Shown here: positions 1,164 through 9,314 of the stretch, piece after piece
How positions within the stretch are numbered: position 1 is the stretch's first letter
Layout: each line of letters opens with the position of its first letter
UHGV virus genome: UHGV-0353264
DNA length: 43,216 bases
Direction: 5' to 3' (one strand)
DNA from: a virus
Notes under the pieces: model-generated
The model's database searches: none
What the model was told of the DNA's origin: nothing
What the model saw: only the letters and a program-made list of their open reading frames with translations
Program-made: the position numbers and the translations under genes

Positions 1164-2567
1164 TTGAGAATGCCGCGCACTGTAACACATAATCCGGATA
1201 GCCCCAATAATGACGATGTTTTAGCCGCATCTGAAAAATGGGACGCCTGTAAACCCCCCTATACCAGCGCACACATGAAAATCTGTGTTGCTGCCGCCAA
1301 AATCATCCTCGCTGCTTCCGGCGTGGCTCGCCGTTCCAAATACGAAAAAGAGAACTATCTCCGTATCGATTTCAGCAAAGCCGGTAAGGTTACATTTTAC
1401 GCCGAGTTTCCAAAAAAGATGGGCCTCAAGGGTAAAAAGCTCGGCGAGTGGCCGGAGCTCGCTATCCAGCTGGCGCGCGAAAAAGCGCTAGGTATGGCTG
1501 ACTGTGGCCTGCGGGCAGAGTCCGTACATGCAGCGCTGGAAATGTACCGGGATGACCTCAAAGCCAAAGTCGCCCGGCAGAAGCTGAGCCCGGACAGTTT
1601 CACAACCTACGGGGTGCGTATCGACCGGATTAAAGCAACGTTCGGCGAGCGCGAGGTGTTCAGCGACGTAACATACAATCGGCTGGTGGAAGTGCTGGAC
1701 GAGTGGATCGCTACTCGCTCGAACAATAACGCCCTGGAGTTGTTTGCCGAGCTCCGTCGGTTCTGGAAGTTCTGCGCACCTACTCTTTGCAACGGCCGCA
1801 ATGTTGCCGCCAGTCTGCCAGATGATTATGTTTCCTCCCGCGTACAGAAACCTACCCCCACACGGCTTTTTACCGATATTGAATCAATCGCCCGACTCTG
1901 GCTCAATGTTGCTGCCTGCACCTCTGTACACCAGAAGAATGCTGTTCGCTTCATGATCATCACTGGCGTTCGTCCGATTAATGTCCATAACCTGCGCTGG
2001 GACTACGTTCACGAGGAGGCTGGTGAAATTGTTTATCCGGAAGGGGTTATCGGCATGCGAGGGGCTATGAAAACACAAAAGGCTTTCCGCCTGCCGATAA
2101 CGCCTGAGATCCGGCGGATTATCGACGAGCAGAAAGCCTGGCGTGATTCAGTTCCTGAGTGCAACAGGGATTATGTATTTTTGCAGCCACGTGATCCAAT
2201 GCAGCCATTTTCAAAACGATCACTGGATAAGCTGGTGAAAACATACAGCCCGGACGGGGCTGTAAAAGGAATAAAACATGATGGGACTGTTAAAGGGAAA
2301 GACGGTGCATTTAATACGATGTGCCGTAAATTCCTTAAGAGCAATGTTATTGCCTTGATGAAGGAAAGAGGCTATTCCCGATCAGACCGAAGGGAAATCA
2401 GCCTCCTTTGCCTTCACCACTCCAGTAAGTCAGATGACCCGATGGCAGAACATTACGACTTTTCTGATGAGATTTTACAGGAAGAGATTGCGTTAAAGCG
2501 CGAAGCTTTCGAGGCTCACGAGCGGAGCATACTTGCGCAGGTGGCATTGCTACGGCGGCGAGGTTAA
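1164..2567 (+). CDS. int: Tyrosine recombinase / phage integrase
   Basis: 467 aa; C-terminal catalytic region with TGVRPINVHNLRWDYV and HHSSKSDDPMAEHYDF (His and Tyr nucleophile context). First gene inside attL. Confidence 0.88.
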   Translation: MRMPRTVTHNPDSPNNDDVLAASEKWDACKPPYTSAHMKICVAAAKIILAASGVARRSKYEKENYLRIDFSKAGKVTFYAEFPKKMGLKGKKLGEWPELAIQLAREKALGMADCGLRAESVHAALEMYRDDLKAKVARQKLSPDSFTTYGVRIDRIKATFGEREVFSDVTYNRLVEVLDEWIATRSNNNALELFAELRRFWKFCAPTLCNGRNVAASLPDDYVSSRVQKPTPTRLFTDIESIARLWLNVAACTSVHQKNAVRFMIITGVRPINVHNLRWDYVHEEAGEIVYPEGVIGMRGAMKTQKAFRLPITPEIRRIIDEQKAWRDSVPECNRDYVFLQPRDPMQPFSKRSLDKLVKTYSPDGAVKGIKHDGTVKGKDGAFNTMCRKFLKSNVIALMKERGYSRSDRREISLLCLHHSSKSDDPMAEHYDFSDEILQEEIALKREAFEAHERSILAQVALLRRRG

Positions 2568-2764
2568 TACCGGCTGCGACACTTTTGAATAAAAGCATCG
2601 ACATTGCGGCGCTCATAACGAACTACTTTTGCACTGAAACGAATTGGTGCCAGGATAGCCCGATGACGATGCTTAATATTCCACTCACATAGCGTTTTCT
2701 GTGTAATACCTAACTTTTGGCATACTTCATCCGGGGTGAGTAAATCGTCGGGTTTCTCGCTCAT
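2564..2764 (-). CDS. AlpA-family HTH regulator / excisionase-like protein
   Basis: 66 aa, LTPDEVCQKLGITQKTLCEW HTH typical of AlpA/Xis-type proteins; overlaps integrase stop and helicase start by 4 nt each. Confidence 0.6.
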   Translation of the reverse strand: MSEKPDDLLTPDEVCQKLGITQKTLCEWNIKHRHRAILAPIRFSAKVVRYERRNVDAFIQKCRSRY

Positions 2765-4155
2765 GCTATACCTCTCTTTTTCATGGCATCGAGCAGGATG
2801 TCCTGCACTGTTCGTTTTGAGTTGCGCCGTTCCATCACCATTTCGTCCATAGTGTCGGCGGCGATAATGTGGTGAATGAACACCGGGCGGTTGTGTCCGG
2901 CCTGTATCTGCCTGGTGGGGCCGATACGTTCAATAATTTGCTGATATTGCTCCAGGTCCCACCAGTGTGAGAAAAATACCAGTATATTTCCGCCGTCCTG
3001 CATGTTCAGACCGTGGCCCGCGCTGGCTGGGTGTGCAAAGAGAACAGGAATCTTTCCGGAATTCCAGTCGCGCAGTGTCTGTGGATCCTGGTCGAGGTGA
3101 CGACCGCGAGGGAATGCTTTAAGCAAGCGTTCAAGATCGTGTTTCCAGTGATAAGCAACCAGCACAGGTGCGCCAGCTGCTTCGGTCAGTATGCTGTCCA
3201 GCGCCTGCAGTTTGGTGTCATGCAGTTCTGACCAACTTCCGGTGTCGTCTGTGTATACTGCGCCACTGGCGATTTGCAGACACTTCAGTGTCTTTGCCGC
3301 GGCGTTCGGTGCTTCGATGCCTTCGCCATTCAGCTCGAGGAACATTTCCTTTTCCATTTCACGATACTGCTGACGGGCCTTCGGCGGCATATCCACGCGG
3401 ATTACGTTATGGATGGGATCTTTGATATCGAACCAGTCGGCCGCATCCAGCGATAGGGTCACATCGGCTAACGCTCGCTGTATTTCACCCTGTGAGTGAG
3501 CAAACGGCTCCAGTTTGGTCCAGCTCTGCCCCGGAAACTGTATCGAGTTGAACCAGCGTGAGGTAAACGCGCCGTAAGTGCGTCCGAGACGTTGCCCCTG
3601 GTCCACAAACCACGCTTGTCCCCACAAATCTACCAGGCCGTTCGGTGCTGGCGTACCAGTGAGATTTATCCAGCGCCGGACATACTTATGCGCCACTTTG
3701 CCCAGCGCCGCCGCGCGCTTACCACCACCTCGCAGCCGGAAGGATTTTAGTCGGGTGCTTTCATCTGGAATGACAGTACCGAACGGCCATCGTTCTCCCA
3801 ATTCCTCAACCAGCCAGACAAGGTTATCGTAGTTGATGGTGAACACGCTCGCGTTGTTGTTCGCCAACGCTGCAGAGCGCGCTTTGGCATTACCAACAAT
3901 TGGTTGTACCTCGATATTGCGCAAATGCCCCCACTTCAGTGCTTCATCCGGCCATGTGCTGGCAGCCACGCGCAGCGGCGCGAGAACCAGCGCAGGTTGT
4001 GTTTCTGCACCCGCCATGAAGAGGTCTTCCAGCGTAGTGAGTGTCGCTACGGTTTTACCCATTCCCATACCCGCCCAGATGTTGCCGCGCAGAATGTTAG
4101 TTTGGTGATTGATTATGAGGTTTTGATAAATTCTGGGGTGGAATATGCTATTCAT
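2761..4155 (-). CDS. SNF2-family DEAD/DEAH-box helicase
   Basis: 464 aa; Walker A GMGMGKT, DExx-like box VIPDESTRLK, C-terminal helicase domain. Part of the phage replication module. Confidence 0.85.
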   Translation of the reverse strand: MNSIFHPRIYQNLIINHQTNILRGNIWAGMGMGKTVATLTTLEDLFMAGAETQPALVLAPLRVAASTWPDEALKWGHLRNIEVQPIVGNAKARSAALANNNASVFTINYDNLVWLVEELGERWPFGTVIPDESTRLKSFRLRGGGKRAAALGKVAHKYVRRWINLTGTPAPNGLVDLWGQAWFVDQGQRLGRTYGAFTSRWFNSIQFPGQSWTKLEPFAHSQGEIQRALADVTLSLDAADWFDIKDPIHNVIRVDMPPKARQQYREMEKEMFLELNGEGIEAPNAAAKTLKCLQIASGAVYTDDTGSWSELHDTKLQALDSILTEAAGAPVLVAYHWKHDLERLLKAFPRGRHLDQDPQTLRDWNSGKIPVLFAHPASAGHGLNMQDGGNILVFFSHWWDLEQYQQIIERIGPTRQIQAGHNRPVFIHHIIAADTMDEMVMERRNSKRTVQDILLDAMKKRGIA

Positions 4156-4184
4156 TAATACACCTATGGTAGAATATGGTCACT

Positions 4185-4206
4185 TCTCTCTCTCTATATA
4201 TATATA
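4185..4206. repeat. Dinucleotide simple sequence repeat (TC)5(TA)6 in the divergent promoter region
   Basis: tctctctctc tatatatatata read directly, 17 nt upstream of the ATG at 4223 and upstream of the RBS ggagg (4213-4217). Confidence 0.9.
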
Positions 4207-4222
4207 ACTAACGGAGGCGGGT

Positions 4223-5020
4223 ATGCCCCTGGCGAAAATATTTACAAAGCAAGTTTCTTTATTAACTATGTTTTCAGCGTTAGCTTATGCGATGGCATAT
4301 TATTTTCAGAAAGGTGTCGCATCGTATTATGGCTATCCAGACCTTTTTATTAAAATAGACTTAAATACGCTATTGTATTCGGCTGTGTGGCTTTTGTTTT
4401 TTAGTTTTTTATTTCTCGGCGCCTTATATGCGGCGTTGATGTTTGATTTGAAAGGAAAATATTATGTTCCATTTATTGTATTTATAGTTGTTATGCTAAT
4501 GGCTAATATTTGTATAATAGGATTTCATTGGCCTTTTGGTTATTTCTCCGAAACTTCTGTGATGAGTGTTCAGGATATTTTATTATTTGCTATGCTTTTG
4601 TTGAATTATCACAATGTGGTGTCTATGCCAATCCATAGTAAGAGACACGAACATCATATGGAGAGCATTAGAAAATTTGGGAGGCTTGCAGAGTATAAGA
4701 ACGTATTTTATTATATCGATTTAAAAATCCTAAAGTCAGCTTTTCCTTTAGGGGTGATAACGTTGTTGATATTGAGCTATACATTCGGGAAGGTTACTGC
4801 ATTTAAAAATAACGAATATTATATGGTAGATGGTAGTAATACTAAAGTGTTGCTCAATTCATTTGGTAGTGGTTTTGTTGTTGGTGATTGTGAGTCAAAT
4901 AGCGCAAAATTTGAATTTGTTAATGATTTAAAAGGGATGAGATTCACAATCATGTCCTCTAAAAAGGAAATAGCTAAATTAAAAGAGTGTTTCGAAATAC
5001 GTGTTAAAAATACGGATTAA
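4223..5020 (+). CDS. AT-rich multi-pass membrane protein of unknown function (moron)
   Basis: 265 aa, about four hydrophobic segments N-terminally and a soluble C-terminal domain; strongly AT-rich; opposite strand to flanking replication genes; good RBS. Confidence 0.6.
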   Translation: MPLAKIFTKQVSLLTMFSALAYAMAYYFQKGVASYYGYPDLFIKIDLNTLLYSAVWLLFFSFLFLGALYAALMFDLKGKYYVPFIVFIVVMLMANICIIGFHWPFGYFSETSVMSVQDILLFAMLLLNYHNVVSMPIHSKRHEHHMESIRKFGRLAEYKNVFYYIDLKILKSAFPLGVITLLILSYTFGKVTAFKNNEYYMVDGSNTKVLLNSFGSGFVVGDCESNSAKFEFVNDLKGMRFTIMSSKKEIAKLKECFEIRVKNTD

Positions 5021-5032
5021 AGCATAAGTCTT

Positions 5033-5320
5033 TTATCCTTTATTGCGGCTTAAAATAATGGCCTCCAGATTTTTGCTATCCAGCACCACTACGGTAAAGC
5101 CCAGCGCGCGCAACCGTCCGTGTTCGCGCAACTGGTCAGGCCGTGGTGGCTTGCCGGGGGATTTACATTCAACGAAAATGATACGACCGCCGGGTAGCAG
5201 AACAATGCGATCTGGTACCGAGCGGCGACCGGGGGATACGAACTTAAAGGCAACCCCGCCAGCCTTTTTTACTTCAGCGACGAGGTGCTTTTCGATTAGG
5301 TTTTCACGTTCATAGGCCAT
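5033..5320 (-). CDS. VRR-NUC domain nuclease
   Basis: 95 aa; PDRIVLLPGGRIIFVECKSPGKPPRPDQ matches the VRR-NUC D...E.K core. Confidence 0.75.
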   Translation of the reverse strand: MAYERENLIEKHLVAEVKKAGGVAFKFVSPGRRSVPDRIVLLPGGRIIFVECKSPGKPPRPDQLREHGRLRALGFTVVVLDSKNLEAIILSRNKG

Positions 5321-5514
5321 TAGCTTTCGCCTTCCTGCTTTTTGCGTTTCTTCATGCAGATAGCGCAGTTCTCAGGATGGTCATGCCATTCATCAATCCT
5401 GATACCTATGAACATCCATTTTCCGCATAGTGATATGGCTTCCCCCGAATTAAAGAAATGTGCTTTTTTTGACAGAGCGGGGAACCCCCAACCCTTATTA
5501 TCGATATTAGACAT
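5320..5514 (-). CDS. Small Cys/His-containing hypothetical protein
   Basis: 64 aa ORF in operon orientation between the TIR-like gene and VRR-NUC; no recognisable family. Confidence 0.4.
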   Translation of the reverse strand: MSNIDNKGWGFPALSKKAHFFNSGEAISLCGKWMFIGIRIDEWHDHPENCAICMKKRKKQEGES

Positions 5515-5699
5515 CGTCCACCTCCTTACGCTTTTCGCGCATGTTCTGCATCAGACAAAAATCAAACCGACGTTCGCTTTGGCCCAGACCTGCATCGCCC
5601 GGTCGTACCCGCCGGACTGTTCAAGGTGCAAAGCCTCCCGCACAGTCCGGTAATAAAGCGGACTGTCCCGGTATTTAAATGACATAGGGTTTTTATTCC

Positions 5700-5748: not shown

Positions 5749-6510
5749 TTACGAGGAAGCGTTAGCTATTTGAGCTTGTGTAAATTCGAAACCAGAATTT
5801 TGTAACCGTTGCACTAGACGAGGAACTGTTTCACGTACATGGTCGTTGAAATTCAGATACAAAATCCCGTTAGCATCAGAAGGCTGTTCTAGATGCTGTT
5901 TCTGAAGGATTGCTACATTGCTGCGCCCTAAGGACGAAAGAAGCATACCCATCTCGAGTACAACGTTCTGTCTTGCGCGGGGTTGGATTTCTGCTTCACC
6001 GGCGCGCTTTGAGTATCCCATATCATCAGGTGTCAAAAGAACAATCCCGAAACGGGTAGCAGTTTGTCCTTGCCCAATTTCACGTTCAAGCTCTTCAATA
6101 ATGGTGAGTCCAGTCCCTCCCGTATTCTGCAAAATGAAATGGTCTGGTAATCCAAGTTTATGAAGGATTAGCTCAAGTTGCTCCTTTGCAGTATGGTCAT
6201 GGCCGTGAACAATGAATATCTTTTTGGGGAGCTCAGATGGCTGTTCTACGGCTAGTGGTGTTGCCGTGGGCGGCGTTCCTAAATGGGTCATTATTGCAGT
6301 TTCAACATTGGGACGTTCTTGAGGGTTACCTTGAAACTGAATGGTCCGGGTGGTGTAAAGGTTAACAATTACGCCATTCGTTAAACGATAGCAGTCACAA
6401 GTCTCACGCTGTTCGTGGGAAAAATTGGTGAACCCACACTCCCTCAAAAAGTCAGGAAAAGATTCTCTCGGGTATGGATAGGTGATCGGCATTTCAGTTA
6501 GTTCCTGCAT
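5749..6510 (-). CDS. TIR-like domain nucleotide-binding protein (PF10137-like C-terminal domain) with unknown N-terminal domain
   Basis: 253 aa; C-terminal KKIFIVHGHD...FGIVLLTPDD...ARQNVVLEMGMLLSSLGRSNVAILQK matches the TIR-like signature as recalled. Lower GC than flanking polymerase; possible own promoter (ttgata in the 64-bp gap after the polymerase gene). Confidence 0.6.
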   Translation of the reverse strand: MQELTEMPITYPYPRESFPDFLRECGFTNFSHEQRETCDCYRLTNGVIVNLYTTRTIQFQGNPQERPNVETAIMTHLGTPPTATPLAVEQPSELPKKIFIVHGHDHTAKEQLELILHKLGLPDHFILQNTGGTGLTIIEELEREIGQGQTATRFGIVLLTPDDMGYSKRAGEAEIQPRARQNVVLEMGMLLSSLGRSNVAILQKQHLEQPSDANGILYLNFNDHVRETVPRLVQRLQNSGFEFTQAQIANASS

Positions 6511-8684: not shown

Positions 8685-9314
8685 ATGCATATGATCCAAT
8701 ACTTGATTGACCATACAGAGCATCTGGAGAAAATAGCTGGATATATTTTTTCATGTTTGATTGTTATGGGAGTCTGGATAAGAAAGATCATTTTTAATTA
8801 TAAGTATAAAGAGCCTAAATATGTTAAGAAGTTAATTTTATATTTAGTTAAGTATGAACGTTATCTGGATGAGGAGGATAAGAGTGCCATAGAAAAAAGA
8901 ATAAATGATAAAATTATTCGTGATGCGCTGAAATTGCAATCCTCTTATAACCGAAGAGATGTTATTTACATTTGCAATAGATTAGACAAAAGACAGTATA
9001 TAAATCAGTTGGTTAAGCTTCAGAATTATATAGAGAAAGATAACGGAGTGTTTTTTATTAATGTTGATTTTTCAGGTTTTTTATTTATTATTAGTCGTCT
9101 GTTTTCCTTTCTGTGTTTTGTGCTGTTTACCCTTTTTTCTATTATCTGCATTATTTCCATAGGGCAAAATGAAGGCCTTTTAAATTATCTTGTGTATATG
9201 GTTATGATAATAGTTTTAGAGACTGTTGGTTTTTGGATGTATGATACTTTCCCGTCTAAGAAAAAGATCTGTGAACTAAATAAAGAATTGAGAAAGATTA
9301 AGATTCCTGAGTGA
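8685..9314 (+). CDS. AT-rich membrane protein of unknown function (moron)
   Basis: 209 aa; one N-terminal and two C-terminal hydrophobic segments; Lys/Tyr-rich; very AT-rich; opposite strand to the replication operon. Confidence 0.55.
   Translation: MHMIQYLIDHTEHLEKIAGYIFSCLIVMGVWIRKIIFNYKYKEPKYVKKLILYLVKYERYLDEEDKSAIEKRINDKIIRDALKLQSSYNRRDVIYICNRLDKRQYINQLVKLQNYIEKDNGVFFINVDFSGFLFIISRLFSFLCFVLFTLFSIICIISIGQNEGLLNYLVYMVMIIVLETVGFWMYDTFPSKKKICELNKELRKIKIPE

What the first reader, a model, noticed from the sequence alone, without database searches (positions are those of the whole stretch)
4185..5020. AT-rich multi-pass membrane protein preceded by a (TC)5(TA)6 simple sequence repeat
A strongly AT-rich 265-aa membrane protein is inserted on the opposite strand between the helicase and VRR-NUC genes. 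Its short divergent promoter region contains a dinucleotide repeat 17 nt upstream of the start codon. Such tracts are prone to slipped-strand changes that alter promoter spacing, so expression could be phase-variable.
Basis: partly seen in the sequence, partly recalled or inferred. Interest (0 to 1): 0.55.

Follow-up and report, generated by a model that had tools for sequence, protein, structure and literature searches.

The report
Prophage membrane gene with variable leader repeat
An E. coli prophage carries an AT-rich add-on gene for an uncharacterised inner-membrane protein; the short repeat before it does vary between strains, but slowly, and it appears to lie in the transcribed leader rather than inside the promoter, so it looks like an ordinary microsatellite rather than an on/off switch.

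Summary
ORF 4223..5020 (+, 265 aa, GC ~0.32 against ~0.55 in the flanks) lies on the opposite strand between an SNF2 helicase and a VRR-NUC nuclease of an E. coli prophage. (TC)5(TA)6 is at 4185-4206, ending 16 nt before the ATG.

The tract is polymorphic: seven alleles, (TC)4-5 and (TA)3-9, occur among about 30 public copies. However, alleles track the CDS haplotype, and the tract changes about as often as 1-2 SNPs accumulate in 1.4 kb of flank.

The only promoter-like element conserved in orthologues is an extended -10, TGnTAGAAT (4167-4175), upstream of the tract. The Raoultella orthologue and a second orthologue (P0007, organism not named by the source) keep it and have no repeat. The tract is therefore predicted to be 5'UTR (about +4 to +25). 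Predicted RBS folding does not change with repeat length.

The protein belongs to a small uncharacterised family (Pfam PF27470 'TfpB'). It is predicted to have 5 TM helices and a periplasmic beta domain with two Cys conserved in the enterobacterial relatives aligned. No known fold matches. Family members recur as opposite-strand cargo in prophages. It is probably a lysogen-expressed envelope or exclusion protein, but this is untested.

The parts
4223..5020 (+). ORF of 265 aa plus stop codon. It is AT-rich accessory ('moron') cargo encoding a predicted 5-TM inner-membrane protein of the PF27470 'TfpB' family.
   Evidence: RefSeq WP_001127518.1. dN/dS is about 0.24 between the two E. coli clades. 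22 of 23 alleles are intact. Family membership rests.
4259..4807 (+). Membrane region, aa 13-195. Helices span 13-36, 47-76, 81-99, 116-152 and 167-195. The K/R-rich loop 135-171 is predicted to be cytoplasmic. The conserved YYGYPxxFIxIDL motif (aa 35-47) lies after TM1.
   Evidence: AF2 model with pLDDT 90.7, hydropathy and positive-inside count, alignments.
4808..5017 (+). C-terminal beta-rich domain of about 70 aa plus one helix, predicted to be periplasmic. C223 and C256 are invariant in the 13 enterobacterial-type relatives aligned.
   Evidence: Both Cys are absent from the C-terminal region of the Bacillus-associated member P0040.
4185..4206 (.). Compound dinucleotide repeat, (TC)5 at 4185-4194 and (TA)6 at 4195-4206. 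It is length-polymorphic between strains.
4167..4175 (+). Extended -10 promoter candidate TGgTAGAAT. The predicted TSS is near 4182, so the repeat would lie at about +4 to +25 of the transcript.
   Evidence: It is the top + strand PWM hit in all alleles. It is invariant in four diverged lineages. The Enterobacter (TGaTAAAAT) and Yersinia (TGaTATTAT) family members carry a similar element 32-33 nt before the ATG. It has not been mapped experimentally.
4212..4231 (+). Shine-Dalgarno GGAGG (4213-4217) and the AUG, held in a small predicted hairpin with codons 2-3.
   Evidence: The same inverted repeat was flagged.
4156..4222 (.). The 67-nt intergenic region between the helicase start codon and this gene's start codon.
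2761..4155 (-). SNF2-type helicase of the leftward early/replication operon. It forms the left border of the variable cargo slot.
5033..5320 (-). VRR-NUC nuclease gene, the right border of the slot. Only 12 nt separate its stop codon from the cargo's stop codon, and no terminator is predicted there.

Best explanation
The region is a horizontally acquired accessory gene ('moron') in a variable cargo slot of a temperate E. coli phage integrated next to yfhL.

It is most likely transcribed on its own from a -35-independent extended -10 promoter (TGgTAGAAT, 4167-4175), against the direction of the phage's early operon. That arrangement is typical of genes expressed in the lysogen.

It encodes an inner-membrane protein predicted to be N-in with five TM helices. 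A C-terminal beta domain of about 70 aa is predicted to be periplasmic and probably disulfide-bonded. The protein belongs to an uncharacterised family (PF27470 'TfpB', phrog_35408).

The most likely role (inferred, not shown) is an envelope-level lysogen function. The leading idea is superinfection exclusion or another anti-phage block at the inner membrane.

The (TC)n(TA)n tract is a lineage-specific microsatellite that expanded inside the 5'UTR between the TSS and the Shine-Dalgarno sequence. It mutates by slippage faster than the surrounding DNA, by tens of fold per base (about 60-fold if one tract change equals one flank SNP). That pace is far too slow for classical phase variation, and the tract is not positioned to change -35/-10 spacing. 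Its length variation is mostly neutral, or at most fine-tunes expression.
For: Moron and slot. GC is 0.32 against 0.55 in the flanks. Only 17 of 159 E. coli genomes that carry this helicase/nuclease module hold the gene. Others carry a 305-aa minus-strand ORF, DUF6338 plus a small ORF, Rha+Arc, or a cytosine methyltransferase.

The gene is real. dN/dS is about 0.24. Conservation is full-length at 56-92% identity. A profile search found 69 family representatives of similar length.

Recurrence as prophage or mobile-element cargo on the opposite strand:
- same slot in Raoultella and in Yersinia and Serratia prophages;
- beside int-xis in an Enterobacter lambdoid prophage;
- between the lambda-P-like gene and DinI/RusA in another;
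- on a Mob/integrase element in Bacillus.
The Yersinia cargo is 26% identical while its flanking genes are 65-72% identical.

Structure and topology. The AF2 model has pLDDT 90.7 and pTM 0.86.

Promoter and UTR.

Tract dynamics. There are 7 alleles, but they track haplotype. Pairs with 0 flank SNPs: 14/17 identical. Pairs with 1-2 SNPs: 17/35 identical. Pairs with 3-5 SNPs: 0/24 identical. RBS accessibility is 0.15-0.20 for every allele.
Against: No transcription start site, expression or phenotype data exist for this gene. The promoter assignment rests on consensus scoring and conservation only. The conserved element adjoins the helicase ribosome-binding site on the other strand.

The exclusion/defence role rests on context and topology alone. 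There was no PADLOC hit, no similarity to any phage protein by tblastn, and no structural neighbour.

No terminator is predicted, so the unit is not a textbook moron.

Assemblies report only the majority tract allele, so within-culture switching cannot be seen. The pairs are not phylogenetically independent.

SSRs located in a 5'UTR can still control expression, as with H. influenzae hmw1A (PMC12721329).
Confidence: 0.6

Rival explanations
1. Classical promoter-spacing phase variation. The tract would lie between the -35 and -10 of this gene's promoter or of a divergent helicase promoter. Unit gains and losses would then switch expression ON and OFF, as (TA)9-11 does at H. influenzae hifA/hifB.
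For: The tract is length-polymorphic and lies in a 67-nt divergent intergenic region. The tract's 3' end creates a -10-like TATAAC. A weak minus-strand candidate, TAGAGA-N17/19-TACCAT, changes spacing with TC number.
Against: TATAAC lacks the -7 T, and its partner -35 (TGGTCA) would be 16-26 nt away. No -35/-10 pair spanning the tract passed the consensus scan. The minus-strand candidate would start transcription at the helicase ATG, downstream of its SD. Orthologues without any repeat keep the upstream TGnTAGAAT. Tract alleles are stable within haplotypes. The tracts (TA 3-9) are mostly shorter than the (TA)9-11 reported for hif (PMC2651432).
Confidence: 0.07
2. Post-transcriptional tuning through the 5'UTR. 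The repeat is transcribed, and its length would modulate mRNA stability, RNase processing, promoter escape or translation, giving graded rather than ON/OFF expression.
For: The predicted TSS puts the tract at +4 to +25. With 9 or more TA units, a (UA)n self-hairpin appears in the predicted fold. A 5'UTR SSR is known to control hmw1A expression in H. influenzae (PMC12721329).
Against: Predicted SD/AUG pairing is unchanged across alleles. The (UA) hairpin is short and weak. Orthologues function without a repeat. Alleles track haplotype, so recurrent selection on length is not evident.
Confidence: 0.22
3. The protein is a type IV pilus or other envelope-appendage accessory factor, as the Pfam name TfpB suggests, rather than an anti-phage protein. 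It would then be a lysogenic-conversion function altering surface structures.
For: The precomputed Pfam assignment is PF27470 'TfpB' for the window protein (weak) and for the relatives P0005 and P0009. From my own knowledge, tfpB is an ORF in the Moraxella pilin-inversion region.
Against: No pilus genes lie near any of the about 12 contexts examined. The model is not in the local Pfam copy, so the match could not be re-scored. No literature on this TfpB was found.
Confidence: 0.12
4. The ORF is decaying or functionless selfish cargo. The repeat would then be junk in a silenced, AT-rich (H-NS-type) region.
For: The gene is rare, in 17 of 5426 complete E. coli genomes. One allele is frameshifted by a 7-bp duplication. 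No function is known.
Against: dN/dS is about 0.24. 22 of 23 alleles are intact. Conservation is full-length across genera, and the deep alignment gives a confident fold.
Confidence: 0.08

Closest known systems
H. influenzae hifA/hifB (TA)n divergent-promoter phase variation (van Ham 1993, as summarised in PMC2651432)
   Same: A (TA)n dinucleotide tract lies in a short region between divergently oriented genes, and its length differs between strains.
   Different: In hif the tract lies between -35 and -10, is 9-11 units long and switches expression. Here the conserved promoter element lies upstream of the tract. TA is mostly 3-7 units, alleles are stable within lineages, and E. coli has not, to my knowledge, been shown to use SSR contingency loci.
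H. influenzae hmw1A 5'UTR heptanucleotide SSR (PMC12721329)
   Same: The repeat is transcribed as part of the 5'UTR upstream of the RBS.
   Different: hmw has 11 or more heptamer repeats that form a long RNase III-processed hairpin with a G-rich arm. Here the tract is 14-28 nt, has no predicted partner arm and has no predicted effect on RBS folding.
Phage P22 SieA superinfection-exclusion protein (PMC10883804)
   Same: Both are prophage-encoded, single-gene, multi-pass inner-membrane proteins. Both occur as sequence types less than 30% identical to each other at equivalent prophage positions (the paper reports three SieA types under 30% identical).
   Different: SieA is 162-164 aa with 3 predicted TM helices and a conserved cytoplasmic motif. 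This protein is 265 aa with 5 TM helices and a periplasmic Cys-pair domain. No sequence similarity was detected, and its function is untested.
Phage morons (PMC3594210, 'The moron comes of age')
   Same: It is an independent, compositionally distinct gene that is present or absent between otherwise similar prophages, and it has its own promoter-like element.
   Different: No terminator is predicted. It converges head-on with the early operon, only 12 nt from the next gene's stop codon.
Pfam PF27470 'TfpB' / PHROG phrog_35408
   Same: Precomputed Pfam hits exist for this protein and its relatives. phrog_35408 matches 19 of 70 family members.
   Different: Both entries lack a known function. The window protein's own matches are weak (Pfam 'weak'; PHROG E = 0.009).

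Membership tests
SSR promoter-spacer phase-variable locus (hifA/B type) | Repeat tract located between the -35 and -10 hexamers of the regulated promoter | tested here: not met
   This was tested in silico only. The best + strand promoter in all alleles is TGgTAGAAT, upstream of the tract. That element is conserved in repeat-less orthologues. No spanning promoter appeared in the consensus scan. The TSS has not been mapped.
SSR promoter-spacer phase-variable locus (hifA/B type) | Tract length differs between strains by whole repeat units | tested here: met
   Seven (TC,TA) alleles were found among about 30 copies: 5,6; 4,7; 4,6; 5,9; 4,5; 4,4; 4,3.
SSR promoter-spacer phase-variable locus (hifA/B type) | High-frequency reversible switching (about 1e-2 to 1e-5 per generation) within a clone | tested here: inconclusive
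   Alleles track haplotype. Of 17 zero-SNP pairs, 14 have identical tracts. The tract changes at roughly the pace of 1-2 SNPs per 1.4 kb. Consensus assemblies cannot show minority variants, and read-level data were not available.
SSR promoter-spacer phase-variable locus (hifA/B type) | Expression level depends on repeat number | not testable with these tools
   Only RNA folding could be computed. SD accessibility is 0.15-0.20 for all alleles.
Phage moron | Base composition distinct from the surrounding phage genes | tested here: met
   GC is 0.32 against about 0.55. The same holds for relatives, 0.32-0.39 against 0.52-0.61.
Phage moron | Present or absent between otherwise closely related phage genomes | tested here: met
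   17 of 159 E. coli genomes with this module carry it, and the slot holds at least 5 alternative cargoes.
Phage moron | Own promoter and own terminator | tested here: inconclusive
   A conserved extended -10 candidate is present. No intrinsic terminator is predicted after 5020.
Pfam PF27470 (TfpB) | Significant match to the family HMM | tested here: inconclusive
   Precomputed hits are 'weak' for the window protein and unmarked (E of 1e-5 or less) for P0005 and P0009. The model is absent from the local Pfam copy, which returned 0 hits.
Superinfection-exclusion inner-membrane proteins (P22 SieA, T4 Imm, HK97 gp15) | Integral inner-membrane protein encoded by a prophage | tested here: met
   This is a prediction only. 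It rests on 5 helices, the positive-inside pattern and the prophage context.
Superinfection-exclusion inner-membrane proteins (P22 SieA, T4 Imm, HK97 gp15) | Sequence or fold homology to a characterised Sie protein | tested here: not met
   tblastn against 50,697 phage records gave no match. PHROGs gave only an unknown-function family. BFVD and PDB fold searches gave nothing significant.
Superinfection-exclusion inner-membrane proteins (P22 SieA, T4 Imm, HK97 gp15) | Blocks DNA entry of superinfecting phage when expressed alone | not testable with these tools
   This needs phage challenge and K+ efflux or DNA-injection assays.
Known anti-phage defence systems (PADLOC-DB) | Match to a defence-protein HMM | tested here: not met
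   There were 0 hits for the protein and only 2 stray weak hits among 70 family members.

The most novel reading that the evidence does not exclude
The repeat could make this prophage membrane gene a genuine tunable or contingency locus. Slippage in the transcribed (UC)n(UA)n leader, or in an unrecognised promoter, would generate subpopulations of lysogens that express different levels of a new family of inner-membrane superinfection-exclusion or defence protein. To my knowledge, that would be the first SSR-driven stochastic control of a prophage defence gene in E. coli, a species not known for SSR contingency loci.
Probability: 0.08. Interest if true: 0.65.

Novelty: new member of a known kind. 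Interest (0 to 1): 0.33.

Why it matters
If the protein proves to be an exclusion or defence factor, it would add a new single-gene membrane family, widespread in Enterobacterales prophages and with a confident model but no known fold relatives, to the catalogue of prophage-encoded immunity. It would also mark the helicase/VRR-NUC junction of this phage group as a cargo hotspot worth mining. The repeat result is mainly a caution. Inter-strain length polymorphism of a short SSR near a start codon does not show phase variation unless promoter position and switching rate are also known.

Tried and rejected
- Pfam, NCBIfam, PADLOC and PHROGs scans of the protein gave nothing informative. The only hit was phrog_35408 (unknown function), E = 0.009 for the window protein and matched by 19 of 70 family members.
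- tblastn against the phage and plasmid collections gave no match.
- The first AF2 run, with 8 sequences, was unusable (pLDDT 47). The 70-sequence run was good.
- A profile search against PDB sequences returned only noise.
- A second homologous-protein run with the 70-sequence profile added almost nothing.
- Literature searches for TfpB, PF27470 and WP_001127518 were uninformative. Every TfpB hit opened concerned an unrelated Acinetobacter ATPase or type IVb pili, and the rest were chemistry or anaesthesia abbreviations by title.
- DUF6338, the alternative cargo in the slot, was tested for remote homology and rejected (hhalign probability 0.2).
- Rfam found nothing in 3900-5500.
- An (UC)n:SD anti-Shine-Dalgarno pairing idea was not supported by folding.
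- Minus-strand promoter candidates that span the tract were rejected because their TSS would fall at or past the helicase SD.

Full report
**1. Where the window comes from**

Window 2700-5600 is 100% identical to E. coli A37 (NZ_CP029327) and 99.9% identical to IAI1. The RefSeq annotation of A37 shows chromosomal shoB and yfhL, followed by a prophage.
- The integrase is at window 1170..2567 (+).
- A leftward early/replication operon follows: HTH, SNF2 helicase (2761..4155), VRR-NUC (5033..5320), a small ORF, a frameshifted ANR regulator, a TIR protein, DNA polymerase A, DUF2815 and DUF2800.
- After that come a repressor region, VapE, Q, lysis genes and head genes.
- Isolated phages vB_EcoM-689R2, -611R5 and -606R2 share the flanks at 95% identity but not the gene.

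**2. The observation**

ORF 4223..5020 (+, 265 aa) exists and is annotated as a hypothetical protein, WP_001127518.1.
- GC falls to 0.32-0.35 across it, against 0.50-0.58 on both sides.
- (TC)5 is at 4185-4194 and (TA)6 at 4195-4206. Sixteen nt separate the tract from the ATG.
- It is the only dinucleotide run of 6 or more units in the 43 kb window, where 0.01 are expected. Two abutting runs of 5 or more units are well beyond chance.

**3. Is the gene real and foreign?**

- Seventeen of 5426 complete E. coli genomes carry it, always in this slot. By contrast, 159 genomes carry the helicase/nuclease module.
- In the other genomes the slot holds a 305-aa minus-strand ORF (the commonest, also in the isolated phages), DUF6338 plus an 86-aa ORF, Rha plus Arc proteins, or a cytosine methyltransferase. 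DUF6338 is unrelated to the cargo.
- Two E. coli clades of the gene differ by about 6% in nucleotides, with dN/dS of about 0.24.
- Twenty-two of 23 alleles are intact. JNEC-KY180 has a 7-bp duplication that shifts the frame.

The gene is therefore under purifying selection, and it is mobile cargo in a hotspot.

**4. The repeat across strains**

I extracted the intergenic region from 17 complete genomes, 5 further NCBI assemblies, 7 IMG/VR contigs and 2 metagenome contigs. Together these gave seven (TC,TA) alleles.

| Clade | (TC,TA) allele | Records |
|---|---|---|
| 1 | 5,6 | A37, 357900, GCA_047262065 |
| 1 | 4,7 | IAI1 and 2-3 others |
| 1 | 4,6 | DETEC-P1056, JNEC-KY180 |
| 1 | 5,9 | 14EC029, C10, C11, one IMG/VR contig |
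| 1 | 4,5 | FDAARGOS_1059 and 3 IMG/VR contigs |
| 1 | 4,4 | two records |
| 2 | 4,5 | XH993, B-JRPT-4119, PS1Thumoskin9, MINF_2E, two metagenomic contigs |
| 2 | 4,4 | four genomes |
| 2 | 4,3 | one metagenome contig |

The tract is therefore truly hypermutable relative to its invariant flanks.

The alleles nevertheless track CDS haplotype. Haplotypes 3, 4 and 6 each show a single allele in 3-6 records from different countries and hosts. The 5,6 and 4,7 pair has the same total length, so it is more simply a C-to-A substitution than slippage.

I compared 1.38 kb of flank in all pairs:

| Flank SNPs in the pair | Pairs | Identical tracts |
|---|---|---|
| 0 | 17 | 14 |
| 1-2 | 35 | 17 |
| 3-5 | 24 | 0 |

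The 22-bp tract therefore changes about as often as one or two SNPs arise in 1.4 kb. Per base, that is tens of fold faster than point substitution (about 60-fold if one tract change equals one flank SNP).

With an E. coli point-mutation rate of about 2e-10 per bp per generation (my own knowledge), this implies roughly 1e-7 to 1e-6 per generation. This is an inference and assumes neutrality. It lies orders of magnitude below classical phase variation.

Two caveats apply. The pairs are not phylogenetically independent, and assemblies show only the majority allele.

**5. Where is the promoter?**

- The simple consensus scan found no -35/-10 pair in the intergenic region.
- A PWM scan of every allele put the same element first on the + strand, an extended -10, TGgTAGAAT, at 4167-4175. 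This lies upstream of the tract and does not depend on it.
- The element is conserved where little else is. It is identical in E. coli clade 2 and in the Raoultella orthologue (86% aa, same slot). It is TGaTAGAAT in the P0007 orthologue (56% aa). An alignment shows TG.TAGAATA invariant across all four lineages.
- Neither the Raoultella nor the P0007 orthologue has a repeat. Raoultella has ...ATGGTTAATCCTAGATAGACCTAACGGAG... in its place.
- More distant family members carry TGaTAAAAT (Enterobacter) and TGaTATTAT (Yersinia), 32-33 nt before their ATG.

With the -10 at 4170-4175, the TSS is predicted near 4182. The tract would then occupy about +4 to +25 of the leader. The distance from the -10 to the ATG is 31-35 nt in repeat-less orthologues and 39-53 nt in E. 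coli.

The tract thus looks like a lineage-specific expansion inside the 5'UTR.

Candidates that would place the tract in a spacer are weak.
- The + strand pair TGGTCA...TATAAC lacks the -7 T and has 16-26 nt spacing.
- The minus-strand pair TAGAGA-N17/19-TACCAT would start transcription at the helicase ATG, past its SD.

**6. Does repeat length matter for the mRNA?**

I folded the predicted leader plus 55 nt of CDS for all observed alleles and for several artificial ones.
- Every allele gave the same small hairpin that pairs the SD (GGAGG) and part of the AUG with codons 2-3.
- Mean P(unpaired) of the SD was 0.15-0.20 in every case.
- Only with 9 or more TA units does a weak (UA)n self-hairpin appear.
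- Rfam found nothing in the region.

A 5'UTR SSR can regulate expression, as at H. influenzae hmw1A (PMC12721329). That case involves 11 or more heptamers forming a long RNase III substrate, which is not comparable to this tract.

**7. The protein**

Relatives:
- The word-indexed search found only 7 close clusters (56-92% identity; those that carry organism names are E. coli, Raoultella and Enterobacter).
- A full profile search found 69 representatives with E of 1e-3 or less and lengths of about 230-290 aa. They include Serratia, Yersinia, Pantoea, the Enterobacter cloacae complex and Bacillus cereus group members.
- All are annotated 'hypothetical protein'.
- Precomputed Pfam labels them PF27470 'TfpB'. 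That model is not in the local Pfam copy, and no literature on it was found.
- phrog_35408 (unknown function) matches 19 of 70 members. PADLOC gave nothing.

Structure:
- With the 70-sequence alignment, AlphaFold gave pLDDT 90.7 and pTM 0.86.
- The model has helices at 13-36, 47-76, 81-99, 116-152 and 167-195, then a five-stranded beta unit at 200-243 and a helix at 247-264.

Topology:
- Hydropathy and K/R counts put the N-terminus, the 74-82 loop and the very basic 135-171 loop on the cytoplasmic side.
- This gives an N-in, 5-TM topology with the C-terminal domain in the periplasm.
- C223 and C256 are invariant among the 13 enterobacterial-type relatives aligned. They are absent from the C-terminal region of the Bacillus-associated member P0040. 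This fits a periplasmic disulfide, but it is an inference.

**8. Context of relatives**

Family members are repeatedly found as single, AT-rich, opposite-strand genes in mobile elements:
- The same helicase|X|nuclease slot in Raoultella, in Yersinia and in a decayed Serratia prophage.
- A decayed copy of the same slot near uvrC-pgsA.
- Immediately beside int-xis of an Enterobacter lambdoid prophage.
- Between the lambda-P-like gene and DinI/RusA in another lambdoid prophage.
- On a Mob/integrase element in Bacillus.
- As an orphan gene after proBA in Serratia.

Between the E. coli and Yersinia prophages the flanking genes are 65-72% identical, but the cargo is only 26% identical. The same slot therefore holds very divergent 'types' of one family. 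P22 SieA shows the same pattern, with three types under 30% identical (PMC10883804).

**9. Interpretation**

Shown by the data:
- the ORF, its composition and the variable slot;
- purifying selection on the gene;
- tract polymorphism that is tied to haplotype;
- a conserved upstream extended -10;
- orthologues that lack the repeat;
- a confident 5-TM plus beta-domain model with no known relatives;
- recurrence of the family as prophage cargo.

Inferred:
- the TSS position, and hence the 5'UTR location of the tract;
- the membrane topology and the disulfide;
- expression in the lysogen;
- an envelope-level role such as superinfection exclusion. I rate this the single most likely function, at only about 0.35.

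The underlying intuition that the tract slips is correct.

**10. Verdict**

This is an ordinary kind of feature: a prophage moron with a nearby microsatellite. It carries an uncharacterised but well-defined membrane-protein family. Interest is modest, and the value lies mainly in that family as a candidate for phage-exclusion screening.

Noticed in passing
window 5749..6510 (-): A 253-aa protein with a CAP12/Pycsar-type TIR domain (Pfam PF10137, E = 3e-31; weak NCBIfam Cap12) sits inside the phage's early/replication operon. It is conserved at the same position in related Raoultella and Serratia prophages and in the isolated phage vB_EcoM-689R2. It could be a phage-borne NADase-type effector or a counter-defence gene.
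   Followed up: partly
window 8685..9314 (+): A second AT-rich (GC ~0.29) opposite-strand ORF of 209 aa lies between DNA polymerase A and DUF2815. It matches phrog_10579 (unknown function, E = 1.5e-107). It has the same moron-like layout as the gene studied. Related prophages carry different cargo at this second slot (164-aa and 229-aa ORFs in L060 and L051).
   Followed up: partly
window ~5507..5685 (-): The ANR-family regulator gene is annotated as frameshifted in A37 and also in unrelated strains BCE049 and WP3-W18-ESBL-08. This may be a conserved programmed frameshift or an annotation artefact rather than decay.
   Followed up: no
window 4212..4231 (+): A small hairpin is predicted to pair the Shine-Dalgarno sequence and part of the start codon of the 265-aa ORF with codons 2-3. 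This suggests intrinsically low translation. It is independent of repeat length.
   Followed up: partly
L009 (E. coli JNEC-KY180), nt 601 of the CDS: A 7-bp direct duplication (ATGGTAG) frameshifts the gene in this one strain. It is the only disrupted allele among 23.
   Followed up: yes
window 4156..5032 slot; L056, L057, L058 and hits H21-H25: The helicase/VRR-NUC junction is a cargo hotspot with at least five alternative inserts among 159 E. coli genomes. The inserts are the TfpB-like gene, a 305-aa minus-strand ORF, DUF6338 plus an 86-aa ORF, Rha plus two Arc proteins, and a cytosine methyltransferase.
   Followed up: partly
L051/L052 (Yersinia) against the window: The cargo is only 26% identical between the E. 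coli and Yersinia prophages, while the flanking helicase, nuclease and polymerase are 65-72% identical. This indicates type replacement or very fast evolution of the cargo at a fixed position.
   Followed up: partly
window 5020..5033: The cargo's stop codon and the VRR-NUC stop codon are only 12 nt apart, and no terminator is predicted. Cargo transcription and the early operon must therefore collide or overlap as antisense RNAs.
   Followed up: no
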